Shown in pieces: positions 3,206 to 59,692 of a DNA stretch of 64,000 nt. The notes under the pieces were generated by a model. It was not told where the DNA came from, searched no databases, and saw only the letters and a list, made by a program, of their open reading frames with translations. The position numbers and the translations under genes are program-made. Within the stretch, counting starts at the first letter, position 1. Each line of letters begins with the position of its first letter. The stretch is from an uncultured Clostridia bacterium (GTDB taxonomy: Bacteria > Bacillota > Clostridia > TANB77 > CAG-508): the NCBI GenBank assembly GCA_947630155.1, contig CANRGM010000100.1:6866-70865 (forward strand). The letters are read 5' to 3'.

Positions 3206-3280
3206 GGCCCGTTGGTCAAGCGGTTAAGACGCGGCCCTCTCAAGGCCGAATCATGGGTTCGATTCCCGTACGGGTCACCA
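3206..3280 (+). tRNA. tRNA-Glu, anticodon CUC (75 nt, ends in encoded CCA)
   Basis: Hand-folded cloverleaf: acceptor GGCCCGT/ACGGGTC, T-arm ATGGG-TTCGATT-CCCGT, anticodon stem CGGCC/GGCCG with loop CTCTCAA. Confidence 0.75.
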
Positions 3281-27882: not shown

Positions 27883-28294
27883 AGAAATTACAATAAGTAG
27901 TCTAGCCAATTATAGATTAGAAAGGGCAAAACAAGATTTATCTGATGCCGAATATAGCTATCAAGGAAGGAGATATTTAATTGCAAATAATAGAGCATAC
28001 TATGCTGTCTTTCATGCAATAAGAGCAGTTTTAGCTTTGGAAAGAATTGATTTCAAAAGGCATAAAGATGTTCTTGCTTATTTTAATCAACATTATATTA
28101 AAACAGAAATATTTCCAAGAACAATAAGTAGAAAGATTAGTGAAGCAGGTAAAATTAGAGAACATAGTGATTATGATGATGAATTTGTTCCAACAGATGA
28201 AGAAACAAGGAAACAAATAGAAACTGCAAAAGAATTAATTGAACTTGTAGAAAAGTATTTATATGAAAACAATAAAAAGAAAATAGAAAACTAA
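27875..28294 (+). CDS. hepT: HEPN-domain toxin-like protein (HepT-like)
   Basis: Alpha-helical, about 139 aa; start ATG overlaps the mntA stop (ATGGGTGA); AAGGAAGGAG RBS; HEPN-like R..H motifs; classic MNT-HEPN pairing. Confidence 0.6.
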   Translation: MGEEITISSLANYRLERAKQDLSDAEYSYQGRRYLIANNRAYYAVFHAIRAVLALERIDFKRHKDVLAYFNQHYIKTEIFPRTISRKISEAGKIREHSDYDDEFVPTDEETRKQIETAKELIELVEKYLYENNKKKIEN

Positions 28295-40726: not shown

Positions 40727-43700
40727 ATGATTAAAAAGATTAATAAAATTATAATAATAGCAGTGGTAGTAATAATGTTATTACCAACACAATTAATTCA
40801 AGTTTTTGCAACAGATATTGGAGATAATCCGTATCTAAAAAGAGGAGAATTAGGAGATTATATAGTTCAAGCTTATAATGGAAGTTATTGGACTTATATA
40901 TCTTATAATATTGTAACATATGATGATGGTACAGATACACGAAAAGTTGCATACTGTGTAACACCTAATACTCCTGGTGTCGAATGGACAGATGGGAGTG
41001 TAGCAGGATATAATGTAGAAATTACAGGCTTAATATCAAATAATGCTTTATGGAGAGTTTTACGTTATGGTTATCCATATCAAACCCCAGCTCAGTTAGG
41101 TGTAGAAGGTGAACAAGATGCATATTTGGCTACAAAGTTGGCTGTTCAATGTATATTGTTAGATAGAAGTACAGAATCAATAAAAACATATTATCGTGGT
41201 GGTCAAGATCCAGTCGCAGGTTTAAAATTAGAAGATATTACTCGTAGAGGAAATAAAGTAGTTAATGCAGTTTATAATTTAGTAAAGAATGCTCGTAGCA
41301 GTAATGAAACACCTAATAACAATACATTAATAAAAGCTACAAAAGTTGGAGATATAAAAGATGAAGGAAATGATTATTTTTCACAAACTTTTTTAGTATC
41401 TTCTTTAACTAAAATGTTAAATTATAGAATAGGAAAATTAACAAATTTTCCAACAGGCTCATATACAGCAGATTTAAATGGAAACAAAAAATCAACATTT
41501 AATGATGGAGAAAATTTCAAAGTGATGATGCCAAAAGCTAATGTTACAGGAAAAATCAATGGAGAAATGACTATTGAAGGACATTGCGAAACATATAGTG
41601 TATTCTTTGGAAAAGGACCAGATGATTATCAGGATTATGCCGTTCTTGTAGACCCTTACAGAGATATAAGTAGATCAATATATACAAATATTGTACCTAA
41701 CACAGCAAGTTTAAAAATAGAGAAATTCGACAAGGATACAAAAGAAAAACTTTCAGGAGTAACATTTAACGTAAAATATGAAAATGGTCAAAACATTGGA
41801 GATTTCACAACTGATTCAAATGGTATTATAGAAATAAAAAACTTGATGGCAGGTACAATCATAGTAACTGAAACTAAAACACAAAGCAACTATAAATTAG
41901 CCACTGATGAGCATAAAGTAACATTAGATGTTGGTGAAAGTAAAACAATAAATATTGATAATGAAAAGAAAAAAGGACAGATAAAAGTTATTAAAGTTGA
42001 TGAGGATTTTAATGAAATTAAACTTGAAAATATTAAGTTTGATGTACTAGATTCAAAAGGTAATGTAGTAGATAAAATAACAACAGACAAAAATGGTGAA
42101 GCAGTAACTAAAGAATTACCTATAGATGATGTGTACACTGTGAAAGAAGTAGAAACACAAAAGACTTATATCTTGTCAGATAAAATGGAGACTATTAAAT
42201 TAGAAGAAAATGAAATTAAAGAGATTACTTTTACAAATGAAAAGAAAAAAGGAGATTTAACAGTATATAAAGTAGATAAAGATAATAATAGAATCGCTAT
42301 TGGAAATGTTGAGTTTGATTTATATTCTGAAGAATTTGGAAAAGTAATTGGTACATATAAAACAGATGTAAATGGAGAAATTAAAATTAGTAATTTGCGT
42401 ATTGGTAATTATCAATTAATCGAAAAAAATACAAATAAATGGTATAACTTATCAGAAGATAAAGAAATTGAAGTTGAATGGAAAGAAACCACAGAAATTA
42501 CTGTAGAAAATGAATTGAAAAAAGGTCAAGTTAAAGTAATAAAAGTAGATAAAGATAATAATGAAGTAAGACTTGCAGGGGTTAAATTTAATGTTCTAGA
42601 TGCAAATGGAAATGTTTTAGAAACAATTGAAACGGATTCTAATGGAGAAGCATTAACTTCAAAATATCCAGTAAGGGATTTTGAAAATCTAACATTGCAA
42701 GAAACTGAAACAGAAGAAAATTATAAATTAAATGATGAAAAACAAACAATTACTTTAGAAGAAAATCAAATAACAACAATTAAATTTGAAAATGAAAAGA
42801 AGAAAGGTCAAATTAAAGTAATAAAAATAGACCAAGATAATCACGAAGTAAGACTTGAAGGAGTAACTTTTGAAGTGCTTGATTCTAAAGATAACGTAAT
42901 ACAAGAAATTACAACAGATGAAAACGGAGAGGCTATAACAGAAAAATTACCAATAGATGAAGAATATAGAATTAGAGAAACTATAACAAAACAAGAATAT
43001 GTGTTATCTGATAAAGTAGAAAAAGTAACTTTAGAAGAAGACCAAATCACTGAAATCACTTTTGAAAATGAAAAGAAAAAAGGTCAAATAGAAGTATTCA
43101 AAATAGATAGTGAAGATAAGGAATACAAATTACAAGGAGTTGAATTTGAAGTTATAAATTCTAATAATGAAGTTGTAGAAAAAATCACAACAGATGAAAA
43201 TGGAGAGGCAACAACATCTAGACTTCCAATAGGAGAATACAAAATAAAAGAAGTAAAAACAGACGAAATGCACATTTTAAATGACGAGGTTATAAAAGTA
43301 GATGTTACACAAGATATAATTTCAAAATTAGAAATTACAAACGACAGAATAAAAGGTCAAATCAAAGTTGTAAAAACATCAAAAGATGAAAATATAATCA
43401 ATGGACTTCCTGCAGGAACACCGTTAGAAAATGTAAAATTCGAAGTATATGATGCTAATAAAAATTTAGTAGATACAATTACAACAAATGAAAATGGAAT
43501 TGCAATTACTAAAAAATTAGATAAAGGAACATATACATTAAAAGAGGTTGAAACTGCAGAATGGTATTTATTAAATACAGAAGAGTTTGAAACTGAAATA
43601 AAAGAAAATGACGAAATAGTAGAAGTTGATGTTACTAATGAATCAGAAACACCTGAAGTAGATATTGAAAAGACTGGTGTAGATAGAGCAATGGCAAACG

Positions 43701-44188
43701 AAGAAATTCGTTACGATTTCAAAATAAAAAATACAGGAAATGTAGCTTTAGATAACTTTACTTGGACAGAGTATTTACCAAGTGACTATGTAAGAATAAC
43801 AAAACTTGCTACAGGAACATATAATCAAGATTTAAAATATGCAGTATATTATAAAACTAATAAAAACGATTATAAATTATTAAAAGATGATTTAAATACA
43901 AAAGAAAATAATTATATTGATTTTACTGAATTAGAATTAGACGAAGACGAATATGTAACTGAATTCAAAGCTGAATTTGGTACAGTAGATGTTGGATTTG
44001 AATCAGTAGAAAATCCTTATATTTTTACAACTGTTAATAGTACAGTAAAGGATGGAGATATATTCATAAATAAAACAAAAATAAAAGCCGATAATAAAGG
44101 TGTTATTGTTTGGGATGAAGACGAACATCCAACAGTTGTATACGAGAAAAAAGAAGAAACTAAAAAGCTACCACGCACAGGTTTCTAA
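40727..44188 (+). CDS. Large surface adhesin: signal peptide, N-terminal about 300-aa domain, at least seven tandem ~92-aa Ig-like (SpaA/Cna-B-type) domains, C-terminal LPRTG
   Basis: Repeats (KKKGQIKVIKVD...NGEA.T..LP...Y...E) visible in translation; ends LPRTGF-stop with no hydrophobic/basic tail. Confidence 0.8.
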   Translation: MIKKINKIIIIAVVVIMLLPTQLIQVFATDIGDNPYLKRGELGDYIVQAYNGSYWTYISYNIVTYDDGTDTRKVAYCVTPNTPGVEWTDGSVAGYNVEITGLISNNALWRVLRYGYPYQTPAQLGVEGEQDAYLATKLAVQCILLDRSTESIKTYYRGGQDPVAGLKLEDITRRGNKVVNAVYNLVKNARSSNETPNNNTLIKATKVGDIKDEGNDYFSQTFLVSSLTKMLNYRIGKLTNFPTGSYTADLNGNKKSTFNDGENFKVMMPKANVTGKINGEMTIEGHCETYSVFFGKGPDDYQDYAVLVDPYRDISRSIYTNIVPNTASLKIEKFDKDTKEKLSGVTFNVKYENGQNIGDFTTDSNGIIEIKNLMAGTIIVTETKTQSNYKLATDEHKVTLDVGESKTINIDNEKKKGQIKVIKVDEDFNEIKLENIKFDVLDSKGNVVDKITTDKNGEAVTKELPIDDVYTVKEVETQKTYILSDKMETIKLEENEIKEITFTNEKKKGDLTVYKVDKDNNRIAIGNVEFDLYSEEFGKVIGTYKTDVNGEIKISNLRIGNYQLIEKNTNKWYNLSEDKEIEVEWKETTEITVENELKKGQVKVIKVDKDNNEVRLAGVKFNVLDANGNVLETIETDSNGEALTSKYPVRDFENLTLQETETEENYKLNDEKQTITLEENQITTIKFENEKKKGQIKVIKIDQDNHEVRLEGVTFEVLDSKDNVIQEITTDENGEAITEKLPIDEEYRIRETITKQEYVLSDKVEKVTLEEDQITEITFENEKKKGQIEVFKIDSEDKEYKLQGVEFEVINSNNEVVEKITTDENGEATTSRLPIGEYKIKEVKTDEMHILNDEVIKVDVTQDIISKLEITNDRIKGQIKVVKTSKDENIINGLPAGTPLENVKFEVYDANKNLVDTITTNENGIAITKKLDKGTYTLKEVETAEWYLLNTEEFETEIKENDEIVEVDVTNESETPEVDIEKTGVDRAMANEEIRYDFKIKNTGNVALDNFTWTEYLPSDYVRITKLATGTYNQDLKYAVYYKTNKNDYKLLKDDLNTKENNYIDFTELELDEDEYVTEFKAEFGTVDVGFESVENPYIFTTVNSTVKDGDIFINKTKIKADNKGVIVWDEDEHPTVVYEKKEETKKLPRTGF
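41700..43620 (+). repeat. Tandem ~276-bp coding repeats (Ig-like domain array) inside the adhesin gene
   Basis: Periodicity of the KKKGQ[IV]KV[IF]K[VI]D motif at about 92-aa intervals. Confidence 0.6.
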
Positions 44189-44247: not shown

Positions 44248-44392
44248 CTCAAATTAGAAAACAAAAAATAATTAAATATTTTTTTAGAAAAGACTTGATT
44301 AATCATAGATACAGAGTTAACATCACACACAACCTAGAGATAGGTTATGTGAACTAGTTCAAAAAATACTAGAAAGAATGGAGGCGAAAAGT

Positions 44393-45007
44393 ATGCAAAT
44401 GATTAATATTCAAGTAACTAAAGATGAGATGTTACAATTTTATGCTAATAAGATTGTTGAACAGGCAATACAAAATTGCAAGGATAATAATTGCACAATT
44501 TCTTTAAAGAATTACAGCAGTGATGTAGACATTTTAAACTATAAAATGCAGATGCTACAAGAATTATACAAAGATGAAAGAATACTAGATGTATTTTGGA
44601 ACAGCGAAGACAATATTGAAGTAGTACTGTTTAAAGAATATTGCCCATTTTATTGTCAATATGGTGAACAAATGCCAAAGAGTGAACAAGCTAGAATTTT
44701 ACTAGAATTTTATAAATACAGCAAGAAAACAGAAGTATTTAAACCACCTTATGTGTCAGTTAGAAAACTCTTAAATAAATATATGATGAGATATGCAAAC
44801 AAGAGAAAAGAAATACGATCAACAACATCTGATGTTATTAAGAGAAATATAGTAGACACAGGTTTTATAAATAAATATCTAGATAAAAACGGAGAGGCTT
44901 ATATCACAATAAAAAATTATCAAGAATTCTTAAACTTAATTGCAGATAAGATTGCAGAGTTAAATATGCAAAGTCAAGAATGCAAAGAAGAAGTAGAAGA
45001 AGATTAA
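44393..45007 (+). CDS. Hypothetical protein (about 204 aa)
   Basis: ORF 44378..45007; the Met at 44393 follows a GGAGG RBS; a terminator hairpin follows at 45011-45045. Confidence 0.45.
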   Translation: MQMINIQVTKDEMLQFYANKIVEQAIQNCKDNNCTISLKNYSSDVDILNYKMQMLQELYKDERILDVFWNSEDNIEVVLFKEYCPFYCQYGEQMPKSEQARILLEFYKYSKKTEVFKPPYVSVRKLLNKYMMRYANKRKEIRSTTSDVIKRNIVDTGFINKYLDKNGEAYITIKNYQEFLNLIADKIAELNMQSQECKEEVEED

Positions 45008-45010
45008 ATA

Positions 45011-45045
45011 TTTATAACACTTGTGGAGTATAGCCTACAGGTGTT
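45011..45045 (+). terminator. Rho-independent terminator (ACACTTGT...ACAGGTGT + T6)
   Basis: Stem plus T-run directly after the stop. Confidence 0.55.
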
Positions 45046-45544
45046 TTTTACGAGAGATGCCGTAAACTCGTATTGTGTATATGCACAAGAAAAAAGTGAT
45101 AGGTATAGTTAGCCGATGCAGGAAAATAACTCGCAGTAATTTCAAAACAGTTTATTGGAATTATATGTGTAGGTGAGATTTCGTGACGCATACTCACAAT
45201 AAAAAAAGAGTTCAGGAGGCAAAACTTGTTATAAGGGATATACAGATGTAAAAAGTTTGGGCAAGTATGAACAAGGTTATTAAATTAACAGCATCTGTAG
45301 TAGATTTTTAATCTACATACTAAACTGCAACAAACGAAACGACGGAATGAGGGGTTTCAAATGTTGATGTGTATTATTTTTATTTACACAATGGGAATAA
45401 TACACAACTTCACTCTACTTCCGAAATTTCAGGGTTTCAGTAGTGAAGAAATGTAAAAAAAGGTATGCGAAATAATAAAGGATAATGAGAAGTGATATGA
45501 TAATATGTAACTAAATAATTAAAAGCGAGGCTACAAACTTCGCT

Positions 45545-45784
45545 TTAATCATCTAGTTTATCAAAATCAAATAAATTTGAAGCATAGAAATCTTTTAAGG
45601 ATATTTTTAGTGACTTACAAATTTGATATATAACACTTGAACTAGGGTTATCAACTTTGCAATTTACTATATCTCTTAAAGTAGATGGAGGTATAGTTGA
45701 TGTTTCAGATAATTTATTAACTGTTATATTTCTTTCAGCACATAATTCTTCAATTCTCATACTTACAGCTTTTTTGAATAGCAT
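45545..45784 (-). CDS. XRE-family helix-turn-helix transcriptional regulator (79 aa)
   Basis: HTH_3-like core (LSETSTIPPSTLRDIVN); paralogous to ORFs 45991, 47523 and 48989. Confidence 0.65.
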   Translation of the reverse strand: MLFKKAVSMRIEELCAERNITVNKLSETSTIPPSTLRDIVNCKVDNPSSSVIYQICKSLKISLKDFYASNLFDFDKLDD

Positions 45785-45829
45785 AATAATTACCTACCTT
45801 TCATTGAGTATTTTAATAGATAAATCAAT

Positions 45830-45841
45830 AGAATATACACG
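45830..45841. promoter_or_regulatory. Perfect 12-bp palindrome ACGGATATCCGT upstream of the XRE gene 45545..45784
   Basis: Read directly; about 46 bp upstream of the minus-strand start. Confidence 0.4.
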
Positions 45842-45990
45842 GATATCCGTTGACTTAAAAAAGAGATGATGTTATAATATTTTTCAATCTAGCAAATAAA
45901 AAGAATATGAATTCAATCATATTCTTCAGTATATTTGACTAAAAAAAATCATAAATGTATAATTTAGTAAATTGTAAAATTAAATAATAA

Positions 45991-46269
45991 TTAATCAAAG
46001 ATGTTAGTTGCATTTTCAAATATTTGCTCATAAGTAATATCTAAAACTTTGCAAAAAGCGACAATTTCAAAGTCTTTAAGCAATAATTTTTCATTTTCAA
46101 TTAAAGAAATGTCAGAATGATATATATCTATGCCCAAAAGAGCTATTTTATCAGAAAGTTGCCTTTGAGTTAAATGACGCAATTCTCTATATTTTTTAAT
46201 GTTTTTTCCTATAGCATTTGATTTTCCATTTAATTTTCTTATACGCATATTTTGTGTTCCTTTCAACAT
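45991..46269 (-). CDS. XRE-family HTH transcriptional regulator (about 85-92 aa)
   Basis: LTQRQLSDKIALLGIDIYHSDISLIE HTH core. Confidence 0.65.
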   Translation of the reverse strand: MLKGTQNMRIRKLNGKSNAIGKNIKKYRELRHLTQRQLSDKIALLGIDIYHSDISLIENEKLLLKDFEIVAFCKVLDITYEQIFENATNIFD

Positions 46270-46364
46270 TAATTATTATTTTACTATTTTACAATATTTA
46301 TTTACTGAACTTGGTAGGAAGTTCAAAACAAGATAAAAAATAAAAACGGAGAGAAGAGGAAATA

Positions 46365-46655
46365 ATGAATGAAAAAACGGAAGATTTAATAATAAAAATC
46401 TGCAATGAGCAGAATTATGATGCAATATTACGACAGCTTATAAAATCAGATGAAGAAAACAGCATAGAAAAAATATTGAATGAAATAAATAACAATAAAG
46501 ATATTCCAAAAAAACAAAAACAAGGAATATATGAAGCTGTATTTGATTATATAAACAGGGCAAATGATAAGTTAATTAAGAATATAAAAGAAATCTTTAA
46601 AAAGGGAGTAGAAGAAGGTTTAAAAAATAATAAAATTCGAAATACTATATTGTAA
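46365..46655 (+). CDS. Hypothetical Lys-rich protein (96 aa)
   Basis: ORF, GGA-rich RBS. Confidence 0.45.
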   Translation: MNEKTEDLIIKICNEQNYDAILRQLIKSDEENSIEKILNEINNNKDIPKKQKQGIYEAVFDYINRANDKLIKNIKEIFKKGVEEGLKNNKIRNTIL

Positions 46656-46670
46656 AAAGGGGGAAAACGA

Positions 46671-47489
46671 TTGAAAACAGTAGTAATAATTGATAACAAT
46701 GAAGAACTCGTAAAGCAAGTGACAATGCTATTAAAAGAAACAATTGGAATAGAAGTAATAGGAACTGCAACAAATGGAGAGGAAGGTTTAATTTTAGTAC
46801 GAAGGACAAGACCAGATATAGTAATTACAGATATAAAAATGCCAGAAATGAATGGAACAGAGTTAATTAGACATATAGCTGGTGAAAAAATGAATTATTT
46901 ACCACACTTTATTGTGATGACAACTCAAGAAGCTAGTACAATAGCAGAGTTAAGAGAATTGCCAATTAGAAGAATATTTAACAAACCATTTGCAATCAAA
47001 GAACTTGTAAATGAGGTTGTGAAAATACAAGAAGATGAGAAAGTAAGAGTTATTATTGCAGATGATGATATAGAATTTTGTCAAAAGTTAAAATATGATT
47101 TAGATCAATATGAAGACATAGAAGTATTAGGAATTGCCAATAATGATGAAGAAGAAATATCACTAATAGAAAAATTAAAGCCTGATATTGTAATTACAGA
47201 TTTATTAAGAAATGGAAAAATAACGCCAGAACAAATTATTGAACAATTTAAAACGCAAAGTTTTTTAGTTGTATCATATTCTCCTTATGCGACTCCAGAA
47301 ACACGAGAAAATGTTGTATGGAGTGTGCATAAATATGAAATAGAAAACAATATTACAGAATTGGTATTTGAATTGAAAAAAGCAAAAGAGAATATGGTTA
47401 GGTTAAAACTTGAAGATACTATAAATATAAAAGAAAAACAGCAAGAAAAGGGAATATGGGAGAGAGTAAAAAAATTTTTTGCAAAATAA
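46671..47489 (+). CDS. Tandem receiver-domain protein: two Spo0A-like CheY-type REC domains, no output domain
   Basis: REC1 VVIIDNN...EVIGTATNGEEGL...PDIVITDIKMPEMNG resembles the Spo0A receiver but has DNN in place of the DD pair; REC2 VRVIIADDD...PDIVITDLL; 272 aa. Confidence 0.7.
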   Translation: MKTVVIIDNNEELVKQVTMLLKETIGIEVIGTATNGEEGLILVRRTRPDIVITDIKMPEMNGTELIRHIAGEKMNYLPHFIVMTTQEASTIAELRELPIRRIFNKPFAIKELVNEVVKIQEDEKVRVIIADDDIEFCQKLKYDLDQYEDIEVLGIANNDEEEISLIEKLKPDIVITDLLRNGKITPEQIIEQFKTQSFLVVSYSPYATPETRENVVWSVHKYEIENNITELVFELKKAKENMVRLKLEDTINIKEKQQEKGIWERVKKFFAK

Positions 47490-47522
47490 AAGAGCCAATA
47501 AATTTTAGCATCTATTGACTCA

Positions 47523-47780
47523 CTAATTTAATTCTTTTTCAGTACCTTCATATATTTTATCTAAAGAAATACCAAAGACTTTAGCTAAAGCAAGTGCTTC
47601 ATAATCTTTGTCAATTCTTTTGCCATATTCAATTAAGTATATGTCAGAATGGTATAGATTTAATCCATATAAATCAAGTTTATTACAAAGTTCTTGTTGA
47701 GAGAGTTTAGCTTTTAATCTATATTTCTTTACATTTTTACCAATTACATTCAATTTTGAATTAATTCTTTTAGTTCTCAA
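47523..47780 (-). CDS. XRE-family HTH transcriptional regulator (85 aa)
   Basis: LSQQELCNKLDLYGLNLYHSDIYLIE; paralog of ORF 45991. Confidence 0.65.
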   Translation of the reverse strand: MRTKRINSKLNVIGKNVKKYRLKAKLSQQELCNKLDLYGLNLYHSDIYLIEYGKRIDKDYEALALAKVFGISLDKIYEGTEKELN

Positions 47781-47833
47781 GATAAAAACATCCTTTCAAG
47801 TTATATTTCTCTAATTTTAATATAAAATATGCC

Positions 47834-47863
47834 AAGACTTGCACGAATATCGTGCAAGTCTTG
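47834..47863. promoter_or_regulatory. 13-bp perfect inverted repeat CAAGACTTGCACG-AATAT-CGTGCAAGTCTTG upstream of the XRE gene 47523..47780
   Basis: Read directly. Confidence 0.45.
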
Positions 47864-48151
47864 TATTATAAAGAATTAAATAAAAAATGTCAAAAAAACA
47901 GCTTGATTTTATTAATTTTTAGTGCTATATATAGGTTATTATAATATGAATTCATATATTATAATTATTTTTTGTTGAATGTAGGTACAATTCTTTTTGT
48001 ATCTGCATTTTTTATAGGTATGAAAAGCTTTAAACTTGAAAAAGTAGACATAATCTGCTATAATTATGGCATAAGTAGGAAATTCTTACGGAACACCTAT
48101 TAAAATATGTATATTGAAATCTTATATATATATATATGCGAGGAGGATAAC

Positions 48152-48607
48152 ATGAATAATAAGTTTGAGGCGATGATAATTACAGGAAGACTGGAAATTC
48201 AGCTACAGGAACAAAAAAAGGCACTAGAGGAAATAAGAAATCTGCAAATGTGTATTGCAAATGATAATTTCAAAGATTCTGCAATTATATTGGGGAGGCT
48301 TTTTGAACTGGCTAGTGAAGTCAATCAAAATGCAATTGAAAATATTAATATTCTCTCTGAATTTTGTATGAAGGAAGAGGAAATGTTAAATGAGAGTAAC
48401 CCAGCTTTCAATATAAAAATTAAAGATATGGGCTTTTCATCTCGTGTATTCAACTGTTTAGATCGTGCTGATATAAAAACAGTAGCTTCAATTGTAGCAC
48501 TGGCTAAAGAAGGAAGATTAGAATATGTTCGCAATTTAGGTGTTAGGGCTTATTCAGAAATAGCGGAAAAACTTAAAGAATATGGAATTAAACTTGAAGA
48601 GTACTAA
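48152..48607 (+). CDS. Protein with an RNA polymerase alpha-subunit C-terminal-domain-like (alpha-CTD) fold, N-terminal coiled-coil region
   Basis: C-terminal 60 aa (MGFSSRVFNCLDRADIKTVASI...VRNLGVRAYSEIAEKLKEYGI) aligns by eye to the RpoA alpha-CTD HhH ([21 protein letters not shown]...RNLGRKSLEEVKAKLEELGL). The Met at 48152 follows a GAGGAGGA RBS. Confidence 0.6.
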   Translation: MNNKFEAMIITGRLEIQLQEQKKALEEIRNLQMCIANDNFKDSAIILGRLFELASEVNQNAIENINILSEFCMKEEEMLNESNPAFNIKIKDMGFSSRVFNCLDRADIKTVASIVALAKEGRLEYVRNLGVRAYSEIAEKLKEYGIKLEEY

Positions 48608-48668
48608 TTAAATCTCTTGTTATATACTGAGGTTTCAAAGGGGTATTCAATTTTAGGATGGTGTAATA

Positions 48669-48968
48669 ATGAATTTTATAGATAATATGACCAATGAGAA
48701 ATTATTTGATTTTGTGGAAAAATACATAGTAGATAAAATAACCCAAAATTCAAAAATAGTAAGGTATTCTTATTATGAGTTAAAGGTAAAATTAGATCTT
48801 AATGAAAAAGTGTTAGATAAATTTCTTAAATATAGTAAAATAATTTTAGATGGATTAGGTTATCAAGTATTTTTCACAGGTGCAAGGTTTAAATTTGAAA
48901 ATGCAGACCGAGTGGTTGAAAGTAATGAGTTTATGATTGCGATAAAACAAGAAATAGAAGATTGTTAA
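48669..48968 (+). CDS. Hypothetical protein (99 aa)
   Basis: ORF. Confidence 0.4.
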   Translation: MNFIDNMTNEKLFDFVEKYIVDKITQNSKIVRYSYYELKVKLDLNEKVLDKFLKYSKIILDGLGYQVFFTGARFKFENADRVVESNEFMIAIKQEIEDC

Positions 48969-48988
48969 GTAAATAAGAAAAAAATTTA

Positions 48989-49228
48989 TTAATCATTTAT
49001 ATCAACATCATTAAACAACTCATCATCAAAAAAATCCTTTAATGAAATATTTAAACTTTGGCAAATTAAAGTTATAGATTCTATTTTAATAGTTTTATTT
49101 TTGCCACGTAAGAATCTATTAATATTAGAACGATTCATACCAGAATATAAAGCTAATTTGTTTCCATTTAAATTGTTTTGCTGTATTAAATTATTAATTC
49201 TTATTCTCATAGCATCAGATAAATACAT
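48989..49228 (-). CDS. XRE-family HTH transcriptional regulator (79 aa)
   Basis: LALYSGMNRSNINRFLRG; paralog of ORF 45545 (shared C-terminal SLKISLKDFY / SLNISLKDFF). Confidence 0.65.
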   Translation of the reverse strand: MYLSDAMRIRINNLIQQNNLNGNKLALYSGMNRSNINRFLRGKNKTIKIESITLICQSLNISLKDFFDDELFNDVDIND

Positions 49229-49470
49229 AATTATAAAACTCCAATCTCATAAAATTATCTTTAATATAGCAAAGGAATAAAAATTAAAAGGGGCTTACAC
49301 GCAACAAAACCTTTATAAAGTATTGCAATTTAAAATTTTTAATGTTAGAATAAAAATATACGAAGAAAATCGAAAAAAGGAACGAAAGAAAAGTGGGAAA
49401 TATGGAGTGTGTATTAATTAATAGTAAAGTTAATGAAATAGTTAAAAAGATAAAATTATTGATATAAATT

Positions 49471-49512
49471 ACAAAGGCATAGGTATAAGTGTTTTTATAC
49501 CTATGCCTTTGT
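49471..49512. promoter_or_regulatory. 18-bp perfect hairpin ACAAAGGCATAGGTATAA-GTGTTT-TTATACCTATGCCTTTGT about 40 bp upstream of ORF 49555
   Basis: Read directly. Confidence 0.5.
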
Positions 49513-49554
49513 GTGATTATTGTAGAATTATACAAATAAAGAAGGAGGAGGAAA

Positions 49555-50628
49555 ATGGATTTAGAAAAGAAATTATATGAACTTAGGGGTGAAATTAGTG
49601 ATGACATTGCTAAAATAAAAACCGAAGAAGATAAAAAACAGTTTGCAGAAAAATATGGTTTTGATTTAAAAGAAGTTAATGATGTTATTAGCAAATGGAA
49701 AGAGTGGAAAGCAGCAATAAAGGCTAGTGAAGGAGTTCGTAGATCATCAGCAAATAATATGTCTGGAGTGGATTATTCAAGCGATATTAGGTATACACAA
49801 GGGGAGGTTACTCGTACTAATTATAAATTTATGGAAAGTATAAAAAAACAATCAATAACAAGAATTGTTAGTCAAATTAGTCCAGAGGAAATTACTCCTG
49901 AATTATTGGATACATTAAAAGGAGATAAGGAAGATCCCAATTCTAGTATGATGTTTCAAGAATGTCTAAAAAAATATGCTACACACATTAAGCCAGAGAA
50001 TGTAAATGAGGAATTTTTGAATTATTTATATGAAAATGGTTATAAAGATGAAATACCAAATCCATTGATTAGTCTTGCATATAAGACATTTTGTGATGGA
50101 AAGTCAAAAGATGAAAAAATAGAGCAACTGGAAAGCACGGTTGAAAAACAAGAAGAACTTATTTCTTTTGATGAAAAAGTAATAAAACAATTGAGTAGAA
50201 AGATTGAGATATTGCATCAGCTTACAATGAAAGCAAAGGCCACTTTTTCAATACTTGAAAGTAAAATTGGTGGTATAGGCACTAAGATACACAATCTAGG
50301 TGAAAAGATGGAACAAGAGGAATCCAAAGGAATATTTAAAATAATAGCTCAAAGAATAAAAAGGGTATTTTCAAAAACACCAATGTTGCCTGCTTCAAAT
50401 GACTGCAGTGAGATATATAGATATAGTCAAGGTATTGTATCTGATTCACAACAATGCAGATTTGATATGCAATCGTATGATGAAAGACAAAATTGGCAAT
50501 CGGTACGAGAAACTGTAAAGCAAAGACAGGATAAGAAGAAAAGTATCACAACACCTATAGAAAAGAAAGATGGAGTGATAGAATTTTATTTTGAAAAAGA
50601 AGACGGATGGGATATTGGTGATAAATAA
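49555..50628 (+). CDS. Hypothetical protein (357 aa)
   Basis: ORF with a GGAGGAGG RBS. Confidence 0.5.
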   Translation: MDLEKKLYELRGEISDDIAKIKTEEDKKQFAEKYGFDLKEVNDVISKWKEWKAAIKASEGVRRSSANNMSGVDYSSDIRYTQGEVTRTNYKFMESIKKQSITRIVSQISPEEITPELLDTLKGDKEDPNSSMMFQECLKKYATHIKPENVNEEFLNYLYENGYKDEIPNPLISLAYKTFCDGKSKDEKIEQLESTVEKQEELISFDEKVIKQLSRKIEILHQLTMKAKATFSILESKIGGIGTKIHNLGEKMEQEESKGIFKIIAQRIKRVFSKTPMLPASNDCSEIYRYSQGIVSDSQQCRFDMQSYDERQNWQSVRETVKQRQDKKKSITTPIEKKDGVIEFYFEKEDGWDIGDK

Positions 50629-50696
50629 AAATAATATAAAGGAAAGAGATTGGAAAATTAATAAATAATAAATAAAATATAAAGGGGGAAATTCAA

Positions 50697-51572
50697 TTGA
50701 AAAATAAAGTATGTTATGGGAATTTTAAGATGAATAGAAAGATGGTTATGAAAAGAAAATTAATTAGTATTGGTTTAGTAATAGTTATGATATTAGGGTT
50801 ATTTGCACTATCAGGTTGTAACAGTAAAGAAGAAATTAAAGTTCAAGAGAACAATCCACAAACAGTATCAATGAATAAAAATATAGAAAACACAGCTGAG
50901 ATTCATATAGTTGATGTAATTGACAATTTTTGGTCTGAAAATTTAGATATTAATTTAACACAAGAGGAAACAGAACAATTTGTGAAATATTTATGCTCTA
51001 CACAGGGAGAAAATAAAAAAATTGGTTGGAAACCAGATTACAAGCTTCAATGTATTGATAAAGAAGGAAAATTGATTATGGAGTTTGGAATGGCTTATAA
51101 TATGTTTACAGATTACAATGGAGTAACATATTATAAATCAGATGAAATGATGCAATATGTAGACACGATTGAGAAAAAATATAAATTAACTTCGCTTGAT
51201 GGTAGAATCGCTGAACCAGGAGAATCATTTTTTTATTTCTTAGATAAATGTACAGAGGGAGTTTTTGAGAAGGATTTTGGTCTACATGAAGGAAAGACAT
51301 ATATGTATTACGAAAATATATACAATATAACGAAAGAGGATATAGAAGAACTAGTTAAATTAATAAATGATATTGAATTGAATCCATCAGAAAATTCAGA
51401 TTTACCAGGTGATAGTGATCATATTTATTTAATATATAATGATGAAAACGAGGATCACGTTATGTACAATTTTATAATTTGTGAAAATGGTGATATTTAT
51501 TGTAATGGATACAAAATTACAGGAAGAGGAATAGAACAATGGATGGAGTATTTAGATGAAAAATATAAATAA
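50697..51572 (+). CDS. Lipoprotein (lipobox LSGC), function unknown
   Basis: TTG start after an AAGGGGGA RBS; signal peptide MKRKLISIGLVIVMILGLFALSGC; paralogous signal peptide at ORF 57550. Confidence 0.55.
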   Translation: MKNKVCYGNFKMNRKMVMKRKLISIGLVIVMILGLFALSGCNSKEEIKVQENNPQTVSMNKNIENTAEIHIVDVIDNFWSENLDINLTQEETEQFVKYLCSTQGENKKIGWKPDYKLQCIDKEGKLIMEFGMAYNMFTDYNGVTYYKSDEMMQYVDTIEKKYKLTSLDGRIAEPGESFFYFLDKCTEGVFEKDFGLHEGKTYMYYENIYNITKEDIEELVKLINDIELNPSENSDLPGDSDHIYLIYNDENEDHVMYNFIICENGDIYCNGYKITGRGIEQWMEYLDEKYK

Positions 51573-51650: not shown

Positions 51651-53627
51651 ATGAAAAATGAAAATAAAAAAACAAACAAAAAAGCTATAATTACAATAAT
51701 TGTAGTAATTATTGTGATAGGAGCACTTGTAACAACGGGACTATTTTTTACTGTAAAGTATTTAAAAAATTCTAAAACAAGTGACAAGGAAAAAGATGAA
51801 ATTATAAAAGAAGAATCACAAGCAGGAACAAAAACCCTAATGATTTATATGTGTGGTTCAGACTTAGAAAGTGGTGGAGGAATTGCAACAAGTAATCTAC
51901 AAGACCTTATAGCATCAAAAGTTGACTATGATAATATAAATGTAATTTTATGTGCTGGTGGATCAACAAAATGGCATAACAACGACATTTCTAAAACAGA
52001 AACATCATATTTTAAGGTTACAGATGATGGTTTGGAAATGATAAAAAAACAATCTAAACAAGATATGGCAAACAGTAAAACCTTAACGAATTTTATTGAT
52101 TATACTTATGATAATTATAAAACTGATGAATATTATTTTATGTTTTGGGATCATGGCTGTGCATTAGTTGGATTAGAATTAGATGAATTCTCTGAACGTA
52201 CATTAAGTTTAAAAGACTTGAATACAGGTTTAAAAAATTCAAAATTAAATAAGGATAACAAAAAATTCGACCTAGTAATACTAAACAATTGCCTTATGGG
52301 AAGCTTAGAAGTGGCAAACATCATTTCTAATTATGCAGATTATCTTGTGGCATCTGAGGATGTAATGTATGGGGGATCTGAAATAACAACATTTGAGTTT
52401 TTAGAAGGAATAAAGAAAAACGATGGTGCAGAAGAAATAGGTAAAAGTTATATTGATACATACACAAAAGCAATGAAAAAAGGAAATCCTGGAACCTATA
52501 TTACACTTGCATTACTAGATTTAAGTAAAATTGAAAATGTAGTTAGTGAGTTAGATGAATATATTGGAGACATTAAATTAGATGAAACAAGTTTTAAAAA
52601 GATTGCAAAAATAAGGGCAGGAGTATATGAGTATCAAAAAACAGATGATTACTACGATATGGTTGATTTACATCAATTAGTAACAAAATTGGGATCAGTT
52701 AATAGCAATAATAAAAATTTATTAAAAGCAATTAAAGATGCAGTAATATATAAATCAGTAACAGATCCATATTCTAACGGAATTTCAATGTATTTCCCAG
52801 AAACTTATGATTGGTCACCAATATATGAAACAATAGATTTTTCAAATACATATGAAACTTTTGCTAAAAAATATATTGATATATATACAGGAAAGAAAAA
52901 ACCAAGCAGTTTTGCAGTAGCGGCAAAAGATGTAGCTAAAATAGATACAGGATTTTCAATGCAATTAACAGATGAGGAAAAGTCAGAATACAAAAGCTCA
53001 CAATTTGTTATATTTGAAGATAATGGTGATGGTACATATAACACAATTTTGACCTCATCTGATACACAGATATATGATAATGGAGTTATAAAAGCAAATA
53101 TAGACAATAAATTGCTTTCAGTTATAGATAAATCTGATGGAACGGTTTTCCCATTAGGCTATATATTTGAAACAGATAGAACTGAAGATTATATTATGTA
53201 TGATGTTCCAATTATATTGGCAGAACCTTATGGAGAAGATTATATTTCTCATACAACGGTCGCATTAATGAGTATAAAGGTGTATAATGATGGCAAAATA
53301 GAGAAACTAGCAACCCGTGATTGGTCTTCAACTTCAGGAGTAGAAGGAAAAACAACTTCAAATGGAGCAATTTTAGATATTACTGATTCAAGCAAATATA
53401 ATTCAATATATTTTATAAAATCTGCTAGAAAAATAGAGTTTGATGAAAATGGCAATTATCAAAAATTAGGTGAACTGTCATCTACACGAGGAGTTTCAAT
53501 TGATGTAAATAGTGAATTTACATTTGAGAAAACAGATTTAGATCCAGATAAGAAGTATGTTGGAGTGTTTGTTGTAACAGATGTTTATGATAATAAATAT
53601 TCTTCTAAATTGATTGATATTAAATAA
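51651..53627 (+). CDS. Membrane-anchored peptidase C11 (clostripain-like) family protein, copy A
   Basis: N-terminal TM; FWDHG (catalytic His) and NNCLMG (catalytic Cys) motifs; 658 aa; about 90% identical to copy B. Confidence 0.7.
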   Translation: MKNENKKTNKKAIITIIVVIIVIGALVTTGLFFTVKYLKNSKTSDKEKDEIIKEESQAGTKTLMIYMCGSDLESGGGIATSNLQDLIASKVDYDNINVILCAGGSTKWHNNDISKTETSYFKVTDDGLEMIKKQSKQDMANSKTLTNFIDYTYDNYKTDEYYFMFWDHGCALVGLELDEFSERTLSLKDLNTGLKNSKLNKDNKKFDLVILNNCLMGSLEVANIISNYADYLVASEDVMYGGSEITTFEFLEGIKKNDGAEEIGKSYIDTYTKAMKKGNPGTYITLALLDLSKIENVVSELDEYIGDIKLDETSFKKIAKIRAGVYEYQKTDDYYDMVDLHQLVTKLGSVNSNNKNLLKAIKDAVIYKSVTDPYSNGISMYFPETYDWSPIYETIDFSNTYETFAKKYIDIYTGKKKPSSFAVAAKDVAKIDTGFSMQLTDEEKSEYKSSQFVIFEDNGDGTYNTILTSSDTQIYDNGVIKANIDNKLLSVIDKSDGTVFPLGYIFETDRTEDYIMYDVPIILAEPYGEDYISHTTVALMSIKVYNDGKIEKLATRDWSSTSGVEGKTTSNGAILDITDSSKYNSIYFIKSARKIEFDENGNYQKLGELSSTRGVSIDVNSEFTFEKTDLDPDKKYVGVFVVTDVYDNKYSSKLIDIK

Positions 53628-58597: not shown

Positions 58598-59692
58598 ATG
58601 GAAAAGGTAAGAAAAATAATTAATTATGGAAAAGCAGAGGTTTTAAGTATTGAAAAAGAAAAATTATCAAAAGAGCCAGATTTAAGAAATCTATTCTGGG
58701 AAACAACTCTAAGATGTAATTCAAAATGCAAACACTGCGGAAGTAGAGCAGGAGAATGTGATACTTTAAAAGATGAGTTAACAACAGATGAAATAAAAAA
58801 AGCATTTAAAGATATTGCTGAAAAGATTGAACCCAATAAAATTCTAATAAATGTTACAGGAGGAGAGCCATTACTAAGGAAAGATCTATTTGAAGTAATG
58901 GATTATGCACATAACGAACTTGGTTTTAGATGGGGAATTACCACAAACGGCTTACTTATAAATGATGACATTATTGAAAAAATGAAGAAAACAGGCTTAG
59001 CCACTATGTCTATAAGTCTTGATGGACTGGAAGATACTCATGATAAGTTTAGAGGCGTAGAAGGTAGCTTTTCAAAAACAGTTGAAAATATTAAAAAATT
59101 ACAAAATGATAAATTCTTAAGAGCTTTTCAAATTACTACGGTAGTAAACAAGTTGAACATAAATGAACTAAACGAAATGTATAAGTTAATGGAAGATTTA
59201 GAAGTAGATTCGTGGAGAGTTATAAATATGGATCCAATAGGACGTGCATTAGATAACGATAATTTATCATTGGATGCTAATGATTACAAATATGTATTTA
59301 ACTTTATGCAGGAGCAGAATAAAAAATCAAAATTTGACATTACATACGGATGTTCCCACTATTTAGGAATGGACAGAGAATATTCTATTAGAAATTTTGG
59401 ATTCTTCTGTTTCGCAGGTTTTACAGTTGCAAGTATATTATATAATGGTGATATATATGTATGTCCTGATGTTGAAAGAAGAAAAGAGCTAATACAAGGT
59501 AATGTTAAATACGATAATTTTGCTGATGTTTGGTTTAATAAATTTGAATGGTTTAGAAATTTAGATAAGCTTAAATGTGGAAAATGTGCTAACTGTAAGG
59601 ATTGGAAATATTGTAGAGGTGATTCGCTTCACACATGGGATTTTGATAAAAAAGAGCCCAAATTATGTATCAATAATTTATTAAAACAATAA
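58598..59692 (+). CDS. Radical SAM enzyme with C-terminal SPASM domain (anSME-like architecture, no N-terminal RRE)
   Basis: CNSKCKHC (Cx3Cx2C) at residues about 41-48; C-terminal Cys cluster CSHY...CFAGF...CPD...CGKCANCKDWKYC; 364 aa. Confidence 0.8.
   Translation: MEKVRKIINYGKAEVLSIEKEKLSKEPDLRNLFWETTLRCNSKCKHCGSRAGECDTLKDELTTDEIKKAFKDIAEKIEPNKILINVTGGEPLLRKDLFEVMDYAHNELGFRWGITTNGLLINDDIIEKMKKTGLATMSISLDGLEDTHDKFRGVEGSFSKTVENIKKLQNDKFLRAFQITTVVNKLNINELNEMYKLMEDLEVDSWRVINMDPIGRALDNDNLSLDANDYKYVFNFMQEQNKKSKFDITYGCSHYLGMDREYSIRNFGFFCFAGFTVASILYNGDIYVCPDVERRKELIQGNVKYDNFADVWFNKFEWFRNLDKLKCGKCANCKDWKYCRGDSLHTWDFDKKEPKLCINNLLKQ

What the first reader, a model, noticed from the sequence alone, without database searches (positions are those of the whole stretch)
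46671..47489. Stand-alone protein made of two Spo0A-like receiver domains with a degenerate acidic pocket: possible phosphorelay decoy on a mobile element
The 272-aa protein is two CheY-like REC domains fused, with no output domain. REC1 is strikingly Spo0A-like (EVIGTATNGEEGL...PDIVITDIKMPEMNG) but carries DNN where the Mg2+-binding DD pair should be. REC2 keeps ADDD and the phospho-acceptor Asp. It sits in an island of four paralogous XRE repressors next to an alpha-CTD-like protein, inside a conjugative-element-like region of a spore-former (gpr and gerA are present in the backbone). Element-borne interference with the Spo0A phosphorelay is established for Rap phosphatases on ICEs and plasmids. 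A receiver-only Spo0A mimic would be a different mechanism, acting as a phosphate sink or heterodimer poison.
Basis: partly seen in the sequence, partly recalled or inferred. Interest (0 to 1): 0.7.

Follow-up and report, generated by a model that had tools for sequence, protein, structure and literature searches.

The report
Orphan tandem receiver on conjugative element
A small signalling protein with two phosphate-receiver domains and a probable membrane-anchoring tail sits, with no partner kinase, in the regulatory cassette of a mobile element in a spore-forming Clostridium; its domains most resemble the receiver of the sporulation master switch Spo0A, so it may let the element read or blunt the host's sporulation decision, but that is untested.

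Summary
ORF 46671-47489 (+) encodes a 272-aa REC-REC protein with no enzymatic or DNA-binding output.

REC1 has Asn at the metal-binding DD2 position, which makes it a pseudo-receiver by current definition. REC2 keeps all five catalytic residues but lacks helix alpha4.

The tandem form is very rare: 2 full-length clusters at 50% identity among 1.84 billion representatives. Seven of seven contexts lie on T4SS- or recombinase-bearing elements, next to a divergent XRE gene. No histidine kinase is adjacent.

REC2 belongs to a larger clade of small stand-alone receivers (motif TDLMRN, catalytic residues about 100% conserved) that occupy the same XRE/receiver cassette. Some of them are fused to a homolog of the window's upstream 96-aa ORF.

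Spo0A is the best curated match for both domains. The margin is 7-22 bits; seven control receivers from Firmicutes show no such preference. Sister cassettes carry a stand-alone Spo0A_C protein and an AbrB-family protein.

Best reading: this is the signal-input subunit of an element-borne XRE switch, fed by host Spo0A-type kinases. The decoy or phosphate-sink reading remains a live rival. Nothing here tests function.

The parts
46671..47489 (+). Gene for the 272-aa tandem receiver (REC1, REC2, C-terminal helix). TTG start; stop codon at 47487-47489.
46671..47030 (+). REC1 (aa 1-120), a canonical (beta-alpha)5 fold. D8 (46692-46694), N9 at the DD2 position (46695-46697), D54 (46830-46832), T84 (46920-46922), K105-P106 (46983-46988). 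Pseudo-receiver by the DD2 criterion.
47040..47351 (+). REC2 (aa 124-227), TDLMRN-clade receiver. D131/D132 (47061-47066), D177 (47199-47201), R180 at D+3 (47208-47210), S202 (47274-47276), K221 (47331-47333). No alpha4 in the model; Lys is followed by Tyr, not Pro.
47352..47486 (+). C-terminal helix (aa 228-272): a charged linker, then a conserved amphipathic end, KGIWERVKKFFAK (aa 260-272, nt 47448-47486). Candidate membrane-targeting or partner-binding helix.
   Evidence: (pLDDT <50 beyond residue 247)
46365..46655 (+). 96-aa all-helical ORF ending 15 nt upstream of the receiver gene, probably in the same operon. No known family. Homologs are fused N-terminally to REC2-type domains in P0166 and P0196.
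45991..46269 (-). XRE-type HTH gene (92 aa as listed, about 85-aa core), divergent from the 96-aa/receiver operon. The same gene type precedes REC2-type receivers in L098, L106, L109 and L093.
45545..45784 (-). HTH_26 XRE gene (79 aa). This type is the divergent neighbour of the tandem receiver in L004, L007, L090 and L092.
47523..47780 (-). Second 85-aa XRE gene (46% identical to 45991-46269), convergent with the receiver gene and divergent from the alpha-CTD operon. A close homolog lies downstream of the single-REC relative in L011.
47833..47863 (.). 14-bp perfect palindrome (CAAGACTTGCACGA / TCGTGCAAGTCTTG) just downstream of a perfect -35/-10 pair on the minus strand (47893-47865). Candidate XRE operator.
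48107..48607 (+). 166-aa protein with an RNA polymerase alpha C-terminal-domain-like region. It occupies the slot that sigma70_r4-like genes hold in sister cassettes.
48669..48968 (+). 99-aa ORF of unknown family, downstream of the alpha-CTD-like gene.
48989..49228 (-). Second HTH_26 XRE gene (79 aa), paralog of 45545-45784. It closes the regulatory island.

Best explanation
The protein is the signal-input subunit of a portable XRE-repressor/receiver cassette. The cassette sits in the regulatory and accessory region of integrative conjugative elements of uncultured Clostridia.

Shown.
- It consists of a pseudo-receiver (REC1, Asn at the metal-binding DD2 position), then a receiver of a distinct TDLMRN clade with a complete catalytic quintet (REC2), then a charged helix ending in a conserved amphipathic tail.
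- It has no kinase and no output domain.
- It always lies beside a divergent XRE gene on mobile elements.
- Its receiver lineage is closer to the Spo0A receiver than to any other curated family.
- REC2-type domains occur fused to homologs of the flanking small ORFs.

Inferred.
- Host kinases that normally phosphorylate Spo0A (or acetyl phosphate) phosphorylate REC2 at D177.
- This changes REC1/REC2 packing or drives dimerisation.
- That in turn changes binding of the co-encoded 96-aa protein and/or the XRE repressor, or their recruitment to the membrane through the tail.
- The XRE-controlled promoters of the element's cargo or transfer genes then switch.

The element would thereby tie its behaviour to the host's entry into stationary phase or sporulation. 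Competition with Spo0A for phosphate or for kinase docking would be a by-product and possibly a second function.
For: Architecture.

Context. The tandem receiver lies next to a divergent XRE gene, with no histidine kinase, in 7 of 7 distinct contexts, all on elements with T4SS, relaxase or recombinase genes. REC2-type single-domain relatives occupy the same cassette in 5 of 5 contexts, including at the head of a glycan operon and of a biosynthetic operon.

Fusions. P0166 and P0196 join a homolog of the upstream 96-aa ORF to a REC2-type domain (44% identity, E 2e-17). P0223 joins a REC2-type domain to a homolog of the downstream small ORF.

Catalytic residues of the REC2 clade across 118 clusters: DD 117/118 and 118/118, D 118/118, S/T 117/118, K 99 of 99 aligned. 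An Arg at D+3 is also invariant.

Affinity to Spo0A, with controls.

Sister cassettes hold sigma70_r4-like, alpha-CTD-like, Spo0A_C and AbrB-family genes, all of them transcription-machinery or transition-state regulators.

The amphipathic tail is conserved in the tandem family, in the REC1-type single protein of L011, and in 21 of 118 REC2-type singles.
Against: - No experiment or interaction prediction links the receiver to any XRE protein, and no fusion of a receiver with an XRE was seen.
- The 96-aa partner is present in only 3 of 7 tandem-receiver contexts.
- The XRE gene may simply repress the receiver gene rather than work with its product.
- The phosphodonor is unknown.
- No exact 0A box lies in the island.
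- The model confidence for the tail is below 50, so the tail's role rests on sequence pattern alone.
- The model of the 96-aa/REC fusion had a low-confidence N-terminal domain (pLDDT 40-67) and gave no interface.
Confidence: 0.4

Rival explanations
1. Decoy, sponge or phosphate sink for the host Spo0A pathway. The element expresses a Spo0A-receiver look-alike that docks on the orphan kinases that feed Spo0A, or on Spo0A itself. It drains phosphate or blocks docking, which delays sporulation and keeps the host transfer-competent.
For: - No kinase on the element, so only host donors are available.
- Spo0A is the top curated and solved match for both domains and for the single-domain relatives by 7-22 bits, and is not top in seven control receivers.
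- Sister cassettes encode a stand-alone Spo0A_C protein (27.5 bits, gathering score 25) and an AbrB-family protein (47.8 bits, cut-off 28.3).
- PF08769 is reported as enriched on mobile elements of gut Firmicutes (PMC6907783).
- All hosts with readable flanks are spore-formers: gpr and gerA here, CotJ, YabQ and spore photoproduct lyase elsewhere.
- Element-borne interference with the phosphorelay by Rap proteins is established (general knowledge).
- A pseudo-receiver that keeps a docking surface but has poor chemistry would suit a kinase sponge.
Against: - Asn at DD2 should slow both phosphorylation and hydrolysis, which is a poor fit for a sink.
- Identity to Spo0A receivers is only 29-36%. 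No mimicry of specificity residues could be tested because the host Spo0A and its kinases are not in the window.
- The fusions to small element-encoded proteins, and the position at the head of assorted cargo operons, are not explained by a pure decoy role.
- REC2 lacks alpha4, so the usual alpha4-beta5-alpha5 dimer face that a heterodimer poison would need is altered.
Confidence: 0.3
2. Phosphorylation-independent adaptor. Both domains act as pseudo-receiver scaffolds that tether a partner to the membrane through the C-terminal helix (for example a T4SS component, an XRE protein, or the sigma-like or alpha-CTD-like factor). There is no link to Spo0A signalling, and the resemblance to Spo0A reflects only shared ancestry.
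For: - REC1 is a pseudo-receiver by definition.
- The window's REC2 has lost alpha4 and the Lys-Pro motif that its single-domain relatives keep.
- The amphipathic tail is conserved.
- Tandem-receiver proteins without output, such as DrdR, act through protein-protein contacts.
Against: - D54, T84 and K105 in REC1, and D131, D132, D177, S202 and K221 in REC2, are invariant across a family that has diverged to 40% identity.
- The REC2 clade keeps the quintet in about 100% of 118 clusters.
- Conservation of this kind is what is expected of sites under selection for phospho-chemistry.
Confidence: 0.2
3. Ordinary chromosomal chemotaxis-type or two-component partner that happens to lie near a mobile element.
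For: Generic receiver hits (CheY, CheB, NarL, OmpR types) score only a few bits below Spo0A for REC1.
Against: - No adjacent kinase or che genes in any of 12 contexts.
- Absent from species-representative genomes.
- Always inside elements that carry recombinase or T4SS genes.
Confidence: 0.03

Closest known systems
Spo0A receiver domain (TIGR02875; PDB 1qmp/1dz3, 9phz, 5wq0)
   Same: Best curated and solved match for REC1, REC2 and the single-domain relatives. Foldseek TM 0.84-0.89 and rmsd 1.4-2.0 A over about 120 residues. Both share the ADDN...EVIG.A.NG...PD..I.D pattern.
   Different: Identity is only 29-36%. The score is 90.7 bits against a cut-off of 200. There is no Spo0A_C DNA-binding domain. 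REC1 has Asn at DD2. REC2 has TDLLRN in place of DIIMPHLDG and lacks alpha4. The gene is carried on a mobile element and is not the host's spo0A.
PleD-type REC-REC stem
   Same: Tandem receiver domains in one chain, one of them catalytically atypical. Top Foldseek hits, E 3e-10.
   Different: No GGDEF output. The order is reversed, with the pseudo-receiver first. The second domain keeps its phospho-acceptor Asp. The relative domain orientation is not superimposable (rmsd about 17 A over both domains).
Output-less tandem-receiver regulators (FrzZ of Myxococcus, general knowledge; DrdR of Xanthomonas, PMC13507683 and PMC13535131)
   Same: Two receiver domains, no output domain, action through protein-protein contacts.
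   Different: Those are chromosomal and belong to chemosensory or motility pathways with a known kinase. This protein is on a mobile element, has no kinase, carries an amphipathic tail and is Spo0A-like. No detectable specific sequence relationship.
Rap phosphatases of ICEs, plasmids and phages (RapI and relatives; general knowledge)
   Same: Element-borne proteins that connect element behaviour with the host Spo0A phosphorelay. RapI also serves as the induction signal of its own element.
   Different: Rap proteins are TPR proteins that dephosphorylate or bind response regulators and are controlled by Phr peptides. This protein is a receiver-fold protein with no Phr-like gene. The analogy is functional only.
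Phosphate-sink single-domain receivers (e.g. Sinorhizobium CheY1; DtcB of the Detocs defence system; general knowledge)
   Same: Stand-alone receivers whose proposed role is to absorb phosphoryl groups from a kinase shared with another regulator.
   Different: Known sinks have intact DD pairs and a kinase in the same system. No PADLOC model matches.
MinD/FtsA-type C-terminal membrane-targeting helices (general knowledge)
   Same: A terminal amphipathic helix of about 11-13 residues preceded by a charged linker. The hydrophobic pattern is i, i+1, i+4, i+7, i+8, and the helical hydrophobic moment is 0.64-0.76.
   Different: Here it is attached to a receiver domain, not an ATPase. Membrane binding is untested.

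Membership tests
Response-regulator receiver domain (PF00072, CheY-like) | Pfam score above the gathering threshold | tested here: met
   83.6 bits against 30.2, two stretches
Response-regulator receiver domain (PF00072, CheY-like) | (beta-alpha)5 fold | tested here: met
   REC1 is fully canonical. REC2 has all five strands but no alpha4 (AlphaFold pLDDT 85.7; Foldseek)
Response-regulator receiver domain (PF00072, CheY-like) | Complete catalytic quintet (DD, D, T/S, K) | tested here: inconclusive
   REC2: met (D131, D132, D177, S202, K221). REC1: not met at DD2 (N9 in 15 of 17 members), so it is a pseudo-receiver under the definition in PMC12632262
Spo0A (TIGR02875 equivalog) | Full-length score above the curated cut-off (200 bits) | tested here: not met
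   90.7 bits
Spo0A (TIGR02875 equivalog) | C-terminal Spo0A_C DNA-binding domain (PF08769) | tested here: not met
   No PF08769 hit. The C-terminus is a single helix
Spo0A (TIGR02875 equivalog) | Receiver closest to the Spo0A receiver among curated families | tested here: met
   Top model for the whole protein, REC1, REC2, P0221, P0144, P0029 and the L011 single protein. It never leads the receiver models in seven controls
Output-less tandem-receiver regulators (FrzZ/DrdR type) | Two receiver domains and no output domain | tested here: met
Output-less tandem-receiver regulators (FrzZ/DrdR type) | Part of a chemosensory or two-component locus with a cognate kinase | tested here: not met
   No HisKA, HATPase_c or che genes near any of the 7 tandem-receiver contexts, and none among the roughly 70 window ORFs scanned (not every ORF on the list was scanned)
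PleD-like REC-REC adaptor | Second receiver lacks the phospho-acceptor; GGDEF output follows | tested here: not met
   D177 is invariant and there is no GGDEF domain
Phosphate-sink receiver | Shares a kinase with a principal regulator and turns phosphate over quickly | not testable with these tools
   Needs phosphotransfer and half-life assays. Asn at DD2 in REC1 argues against fast chemistry there
MinD/FtsA-type membrane-targeting sequence | Conserved C-terminal amphipathic helix | tested here: met
   Hydrophobic moment 0.64-0.76. It ranks 1st to 14th among 262-280 windows in each of 17 members (in the top four in 14 of 17). The pattern is kept despite sequence drift
MinD/FtsA-type membrane-targeting sequence | Binds the membrane | not testable with these tools
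   Needs localisation or liposome assays
Known anti-phage defence systems (PADLOC) | Match to any PADLOC model | tested here: not met
   No hit for the receiver, the 96-aa ORF or the alpha-CTD-like protein

The most novel reading that the evidence does not exclude
Integrative conjugative elements of Clostridia carry a modular toolkit for the Spo0A pathway. It consists of kinase-less paralogs of the Spo0A receiver with membrane-targeting tails, stand-alone Spo0A_C DNA-binding proteins, and AbrB paralogs, all wired to XRE switches. With this toolkit an element could read, or override, the host's decision to sporulate. In this reading the tandem protein is a kinase sponge or phosphate sink that delays sporulation while the element transfers. 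That would be a receiver-based counterpart of the Rap phosphatases.
Probability: 0.27. Interest if true: 0.8.

Novelty: new variant of a known kind. Interest (0 to 1): 0.55.

Why it matters
Mobile elements of Bacillus are known to meddle with the sporulation phosphorelay through Rap phosphatases. Nothing comparable is described for Clostridia, which lack Spo0F and Spo0B and feed Spo0A directly from orphan kinases.

A family of element-borne, kinase-less receivers related to the Spo0A receiver would be a new route by which elements sense or manipulate sporulation in gut and rumen Clostridia. The case is strengthened by sister elements that carry stand-alone Spo0A_C and AbrB-family genes.

The work also defines three things that can be tested directly:
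- an unannotated receiver clade (TDLMRN motif, invariant Arg at D+3);
- a recurrent XRE/receiver cassette;
- a receiver with a MinD-like tail, which suggests membrane association controlled by phosphorylation.

Tried and rejected
- DNA similarity of the island (44300-50700) to plasmids and phages: no match.
- Protein search of plasmid and phage records: only generic receiver hits at or below 43% identity over part of REC1.
- IMG/VR scan with the REC2 profile: two weak partial hits.
- GTDB species-representative scan: no true family member. The best hit was a single-REC relative at 40% identity, which proved informative.
- Exact Spo0A box TGTCGAA: 4 sites in the window against 2.2 expected, none in the island. 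Direct Spo0A~P control is therefore not supported.
- Rfam scan of the whole window: only tRNA-Glu.
- PADLOC: no defence-system match for the receiver or its neighbours.
- HPt idea for the 96-aa ORF: rejected, because there is no conserved histidine (none at all in the window copy).
- My guess by eye that the C-terminal part of the second receiver protein (62630-63535) is Spo0A_C-like: not supported by Pfam.
- AlphaFold model of the natural fusion P0166, made to obtain a 96-aa/REC interface: the N-terminal domain had pLDDT 40-67, so it was not used.
- AFDB fold search: the library was unavailable.
- Source organism: exact-sequence look-ups returned only short metagenome contigs with no names.
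- Literature: no paper was found on element-borne Spo0A-like receivers.
Full report
**The observation**

The ORF is real. It runs from 46671 to 47489 on the plus strand and encodes 272 aa. It starts at TTG, seven bases after a GGGGG ribosome-binding site, and homologs start with the same MKTVVI.

Pfam finds Response_reg at E 1.4e-23 in two stretches. An AlphaFold model built on 17 family members (pLDDT 85.7, pTM 0.71) shows three parts:
- a canonical (beta-alpha)5 REC1 (residues 1-120);
- a second receiver-like domain (124-227) that has all five strands but a loop where alpha4 should be;
- one long C-terminal helix (228-272), which is of low confidence beyond residue 247.

Foldseek against the PDB returns the REC-REC stem of PleD (E 3e-10) and the Spo0A receiver (TM 0.84-0.89, rmsd 1.4-2.0 A, 28-31% identity). 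CheY and NarL-type receivers reach similar TM scores.

**Active sites**

Aligned to Spo0A (A-D-D-N), REC1 reads I-D-N-N. Only the second acidic residue is replaced, and the third residue matches Spo0A's own Asn. D8, D54, T84 and K105-P106 are invariant in the family. Position 9 is Asn in 15 of 17 members and Asp in the two most divergent.

Among roughly 50 unrelated receiver hits in which both positions aligned, the second position was Asp in 44 and Asn in one. The recent review of pseudo-receivers states that DD2 binds the metal directly, that it is 100% acidic in true receivers, and that Asn is its commonest replacement in pseudo-receivers (PMC12632262). REC1 is therefore a pseudo-receiver by that definition.

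REC2 keeps D131, D132, D177, S202 and K221, all invariant. It has TDLLRN where receivers normally have D-x-x-M-P, and its Lys is followed by Tyr rather than Pro. REC1 and REC2 are 40% identical over their first 52 residues.

**The tail**

The last 11-13 residues (KGIWERVKKFFAK) keep a hydrophobic pattern at i, i+1, i+4, i+7, i+8 in all 17 members, although the sequence drifts. The helical hydrophobic moment is 0.64-0.76. It is in the top four of 262-280 windows in 14 of the 17 proteins and ranks 9th to 14th in the other three.

The layout is a charged linker followed by a short amphipathic end. This resembles the membrane-targeting helices of MinD and FtsA (general knowledge; not tested here).

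**Family and distribution**

The word-indexed search of 5.8 billion proteins found about 27 full or partial family members. All come from metagenome assemblies and none is named. Scores then drop sharply to generic receivers that match only REC1.

The exhaustive profile search of 1.84 billion 50%-identity representatives found only two full-length clusters and two fragments of the REC1-REC2-tail architecture. No member is in PLSDB plasmids or INPHARED phages, and an IMG/VR scan with the REC2 profile gave only a weak partial match. Nothing above 40% identity occurs in 185,579 species-representative genomes.

**Context of the tandem family**

The window and six other distinct homolog contexts all lie on mobile elements:

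| Locus | Flanking features |
|---|---|
| window | fragmented VirD4, TrbL, PrgI, VirB4, M23 peptidase, sortase, adhesin upstream |
| L001 | serine recombinase, TnpV, NikA/MobC, relaxase |
| L004, L090 | VirD4, TrbL, PrgI, VirB4, sortase, CHAP |
| L007 | VirB4, sortase, sigma-like genes, PemK, two integrases |
| L092 | zeta toxin and small ORFs |
| L093 | integrase |

In every case a small XRE gene lies divergently upstream. In none is a histidine kinase nearby. None of the window ORFs that I scanned carries HisKA or HATPase_c, although not every ORF on the list was scanned.

The window backbone (1-21.5 kb) is chromosomal and sporulation-competent. It carries gpr, the GerA operon, trigger factor, ClpP/ClpX and RNase R.

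**REC2 belongs to a larger clade**

A profile of REC2 alone retrieved more than 118 clusters of small (120-175 aa) stand-alone receivers from Clostridia, at E 1e-28 to 1e-36. They share the motif IIIADD...YEDIEILGIANTDEEEI.MIE.LKPD.VITDLMRNHK(F/Y)TGLDIIK.

Their catalytic residues are essentially invariant: DD in 117/118 and 118/118, D in 118/118, S/T in 117/118, K in 99 of 99 aligned. An Arg at D+3 is also invariant. These look like working receivers. About a fifth of them carry the same kind of amphipathic tail.

Their contexts repeat the cassette:
- L095: DUF3560 and a serine recombinase.
- L098: an XRE about 85% identical to the window's 45991-46269, a 97-aa homolog of the window's 96-aa ORF, the receiver, a 92-aa ORF, a stand-alone Spo0A_C protein, a sigma70_r4-like gene and two serine recombinases.
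- L100: integrase fragments.
- L106: VirD4, HU, two XRE genes, the receiver, HEPN/MNT, ERF and SSB.
- L109: a transposase fragment, an XRE, the receiver, then a glycan-biosynthesis operon.

A species-representative genome of an uncultured Clostridia bacterium (L011) has a REC1-type single receiver with an intact DD pair and the same tail. It is preceded by an AbrB-family gene and followed by an XRE close to the window's 47523-47780, a sigma-like gene, PemK and a serine recombinase.

**Fusions**

P0166 (64 member sequences) and P0196 are natural fusions of a homolog of the window's upstream 96-aa ORF with a REC2-type domain. BLASTP gives 44% identity over 86 residues, E 2e-17. P0223 appears, by eye in the alignment, to fuse a REC2-type domain to a homolog of the small ORF that follows the receiver in L098.

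The 96-aa protein is all-helical, has no Pfam, NCBIfam or PADLOC match, and has no conserved histidine, so it is not an HPt protein. The fusions imply that the REC2-type domain works through small proteins encoded by the element.

**How Spo0A-like is it?**

Among 18,950 NCBIfam models, Spo0A (TIGR02875) is the top hit in each case below:

| Query | Spo0A (bits) | Next model (bits) |
|---|---|---|
| whole protein | 90.7 | 71.8 |
| REC1 | 59.1 | 52.5 |
| REC2 | 39.1 | 26.1 |
| P0221 (REC2-type single) | 61.6 | 41.5 |
| P0029 | 67.5 | 45.8 |
| L011 single (REC1-type) | 67.3 | 52.7 |

In the PDB, the four best matches of the REC2 profile are all Spo0A receivers (42.8-35.2 bits; the next is NarL at 31.9).

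The controls behave differently. In seven other receivers from Firmicutes, and in the window's own second receiver protein (62630-63535), Spo0A never leads the receiver models. The affinity is therefore specific to this element-borne lineage and is not a matter of composition.

It is still a distant relationship. Identity is 29-36% and all scores are far below the 200-bit cut-off. No Spo0A_C-bearing protein appeared in the top 120 hits of either large search.

Two sister cassettes carry other pieces of the Spo0A/AbrB circuit. One has a stand-alone Spo0A_C protein (27.5 bits; gathering score 25). The other has an AbrB-family protein (47.8 bits; cut-off 28.3). A published survey also reports PF08769 as enriched on mobile elements of gut Firmicutes (PMC6907783).

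**Interpretation**

The shown facts are these: a kinase-less pseudo-receiver plus receiver with an amphipathic tail; borne on mobile elements; always paired with XRE genes; related to the Spo0A receiver; and linked by fusions to small cassette proteins.

I commit, at confidence 0.4, to the reading that it is the signal-input subunit of an element-borne XRE switch. In this model host kinases of the kind that phosphorylate Spo0A (or acetyl phosphate) phosphorylate REC2. The resulting change alters binding, or membrane recruitment, of the 96-aa protein and/or the XRE repressor. That switches cargo or transfer promoters as the host approaches stationary phase.

The Spo0A_C and AbrB companions and the analogy with Rap proteins favour it. 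The Asn at DD2, the fusions, and the cassette's appearance at the head of unrelated operons weigh against a pure sink. A phosphorylation-independent scaffold (0.2) is made less likely by the strict conservation of the catalytic residues. An ordinary chromosomal two-component partner is effectively excluded.

**Limits**

- Function, phosphodonor, partners and membrane binding are all untested.
- The host species is unknown.
- Element boundaries and the integrase are not in the window.
- Several window genes are split, including a host gene, so the assembly may carry indel errors.
- Context counts come from a handful of the longest metagenome contigs. They are not a statistical enrichment test.

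Noticed in passing
window 30432-31903, 32269-33127 and 16882-18202: The VirD4-type coupling protein is split into three ORFs (Pfam profile positions 72-176, 229-382, 377-440). TrbL_4 is split into two. The host GerAC gene is also split into two overlapping ORFs. Either the assembly has indel errors or both the element and the host genes are decaying.
   Followed up: partly
window 40727-44188: A 1153-aa surface adhesin with a thioester domain and seven SpaA/prealbumin-like repeats. The ORF stops immediately after LPRTGF, without the usual hydrophobic tail of a sortase signal. A sortase gene lies just upstream (39192-39752).
   Followed up: no
window 48107-48607: A 166-aa protein whose C-terminal 65 residues match the RNA polymerase alpha C-terminal domain (PF03118, E 1.2e-16). 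It sits where sister cassettes (L011, L098) carry sigma70_r4-like genes, and L007 has a 70-aa alpha-CTD-like ORF. It may be an element-encoded mimic of a polymerase subunit.
   Followed up: partly
L098 8898-9323 (-) and L011 9692-9940 (+): Sister elements carry a stand-alone Spo0A_C DNA-binding protein (141 aa, PF08769, 27.5 bits) and an AbrB-family protein (82 aa, TIGR01439, 47.8 bits) within the same XRE/receiver cassette.
   Followed up: partly
window 47833-47863 and 47865-47893: A 14-bp perfect palindrome lies directly downstream of a perfect TTGACA-17-TATAAT promoter on the minus strand, upstream of the XRE gene at 47523-47780. It looks like an autoregulatory operator.
   Followed up: no
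window 45008-45544: A gene-free stretch of about 540 bp between the 209-aa ORF and the first XRE gene. No Rfam match. It could hold an oriT, promoters or a small RNA.
   Followed up: partly
window 62630-63535 (-): A second receiver-domain protein (likely start at Met68, about 234 aa) with a C-terminal domain of about 110 aa that matches no Pfam family. Unlike the finding, it shows no preference for the Spo0A model.
   Followed up: partly
window 51651-53627 and 55232-57208: Two 658-aa paralogs of clostripain-family (C11) peptidases. Small membrane or secreted ORFs lie between them and a radical-SAM/SPASM enzyme lies downstream (58598-59692). Possibly a cargo module for peptide maturation.
   Followed up: no
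window 27547-28294: A nucleotidyltransferase/HEPN gene pair (PADLOC PDC-S09, E 5e-26; Pfam HEPN, E 2e-23) inside the element. The same kind of pair follows the REC2-type receiver in L106-L108.
   Followed up: no
window 4586-6214: A 542-aa SMC/AAA ATPase beside gpr in the chromosomal backbone matches the PADLOC mad3 model (E 5e-29) and LmuB more weakly. Possibly a small defence locus next to tRNA-Glu (3206-3280).
   Followed up: no
REC2-type family (P0121-P0238): An invariant Arg three residues after the phospho-acceptor Asp (118 of 118 clusters) replaces the usual Met-Pro segment of the beta3-alpha3 loop. This is an unexplained hallmark of the clade and could affect phosphoryl-group chemistry.
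   Followed up: partly
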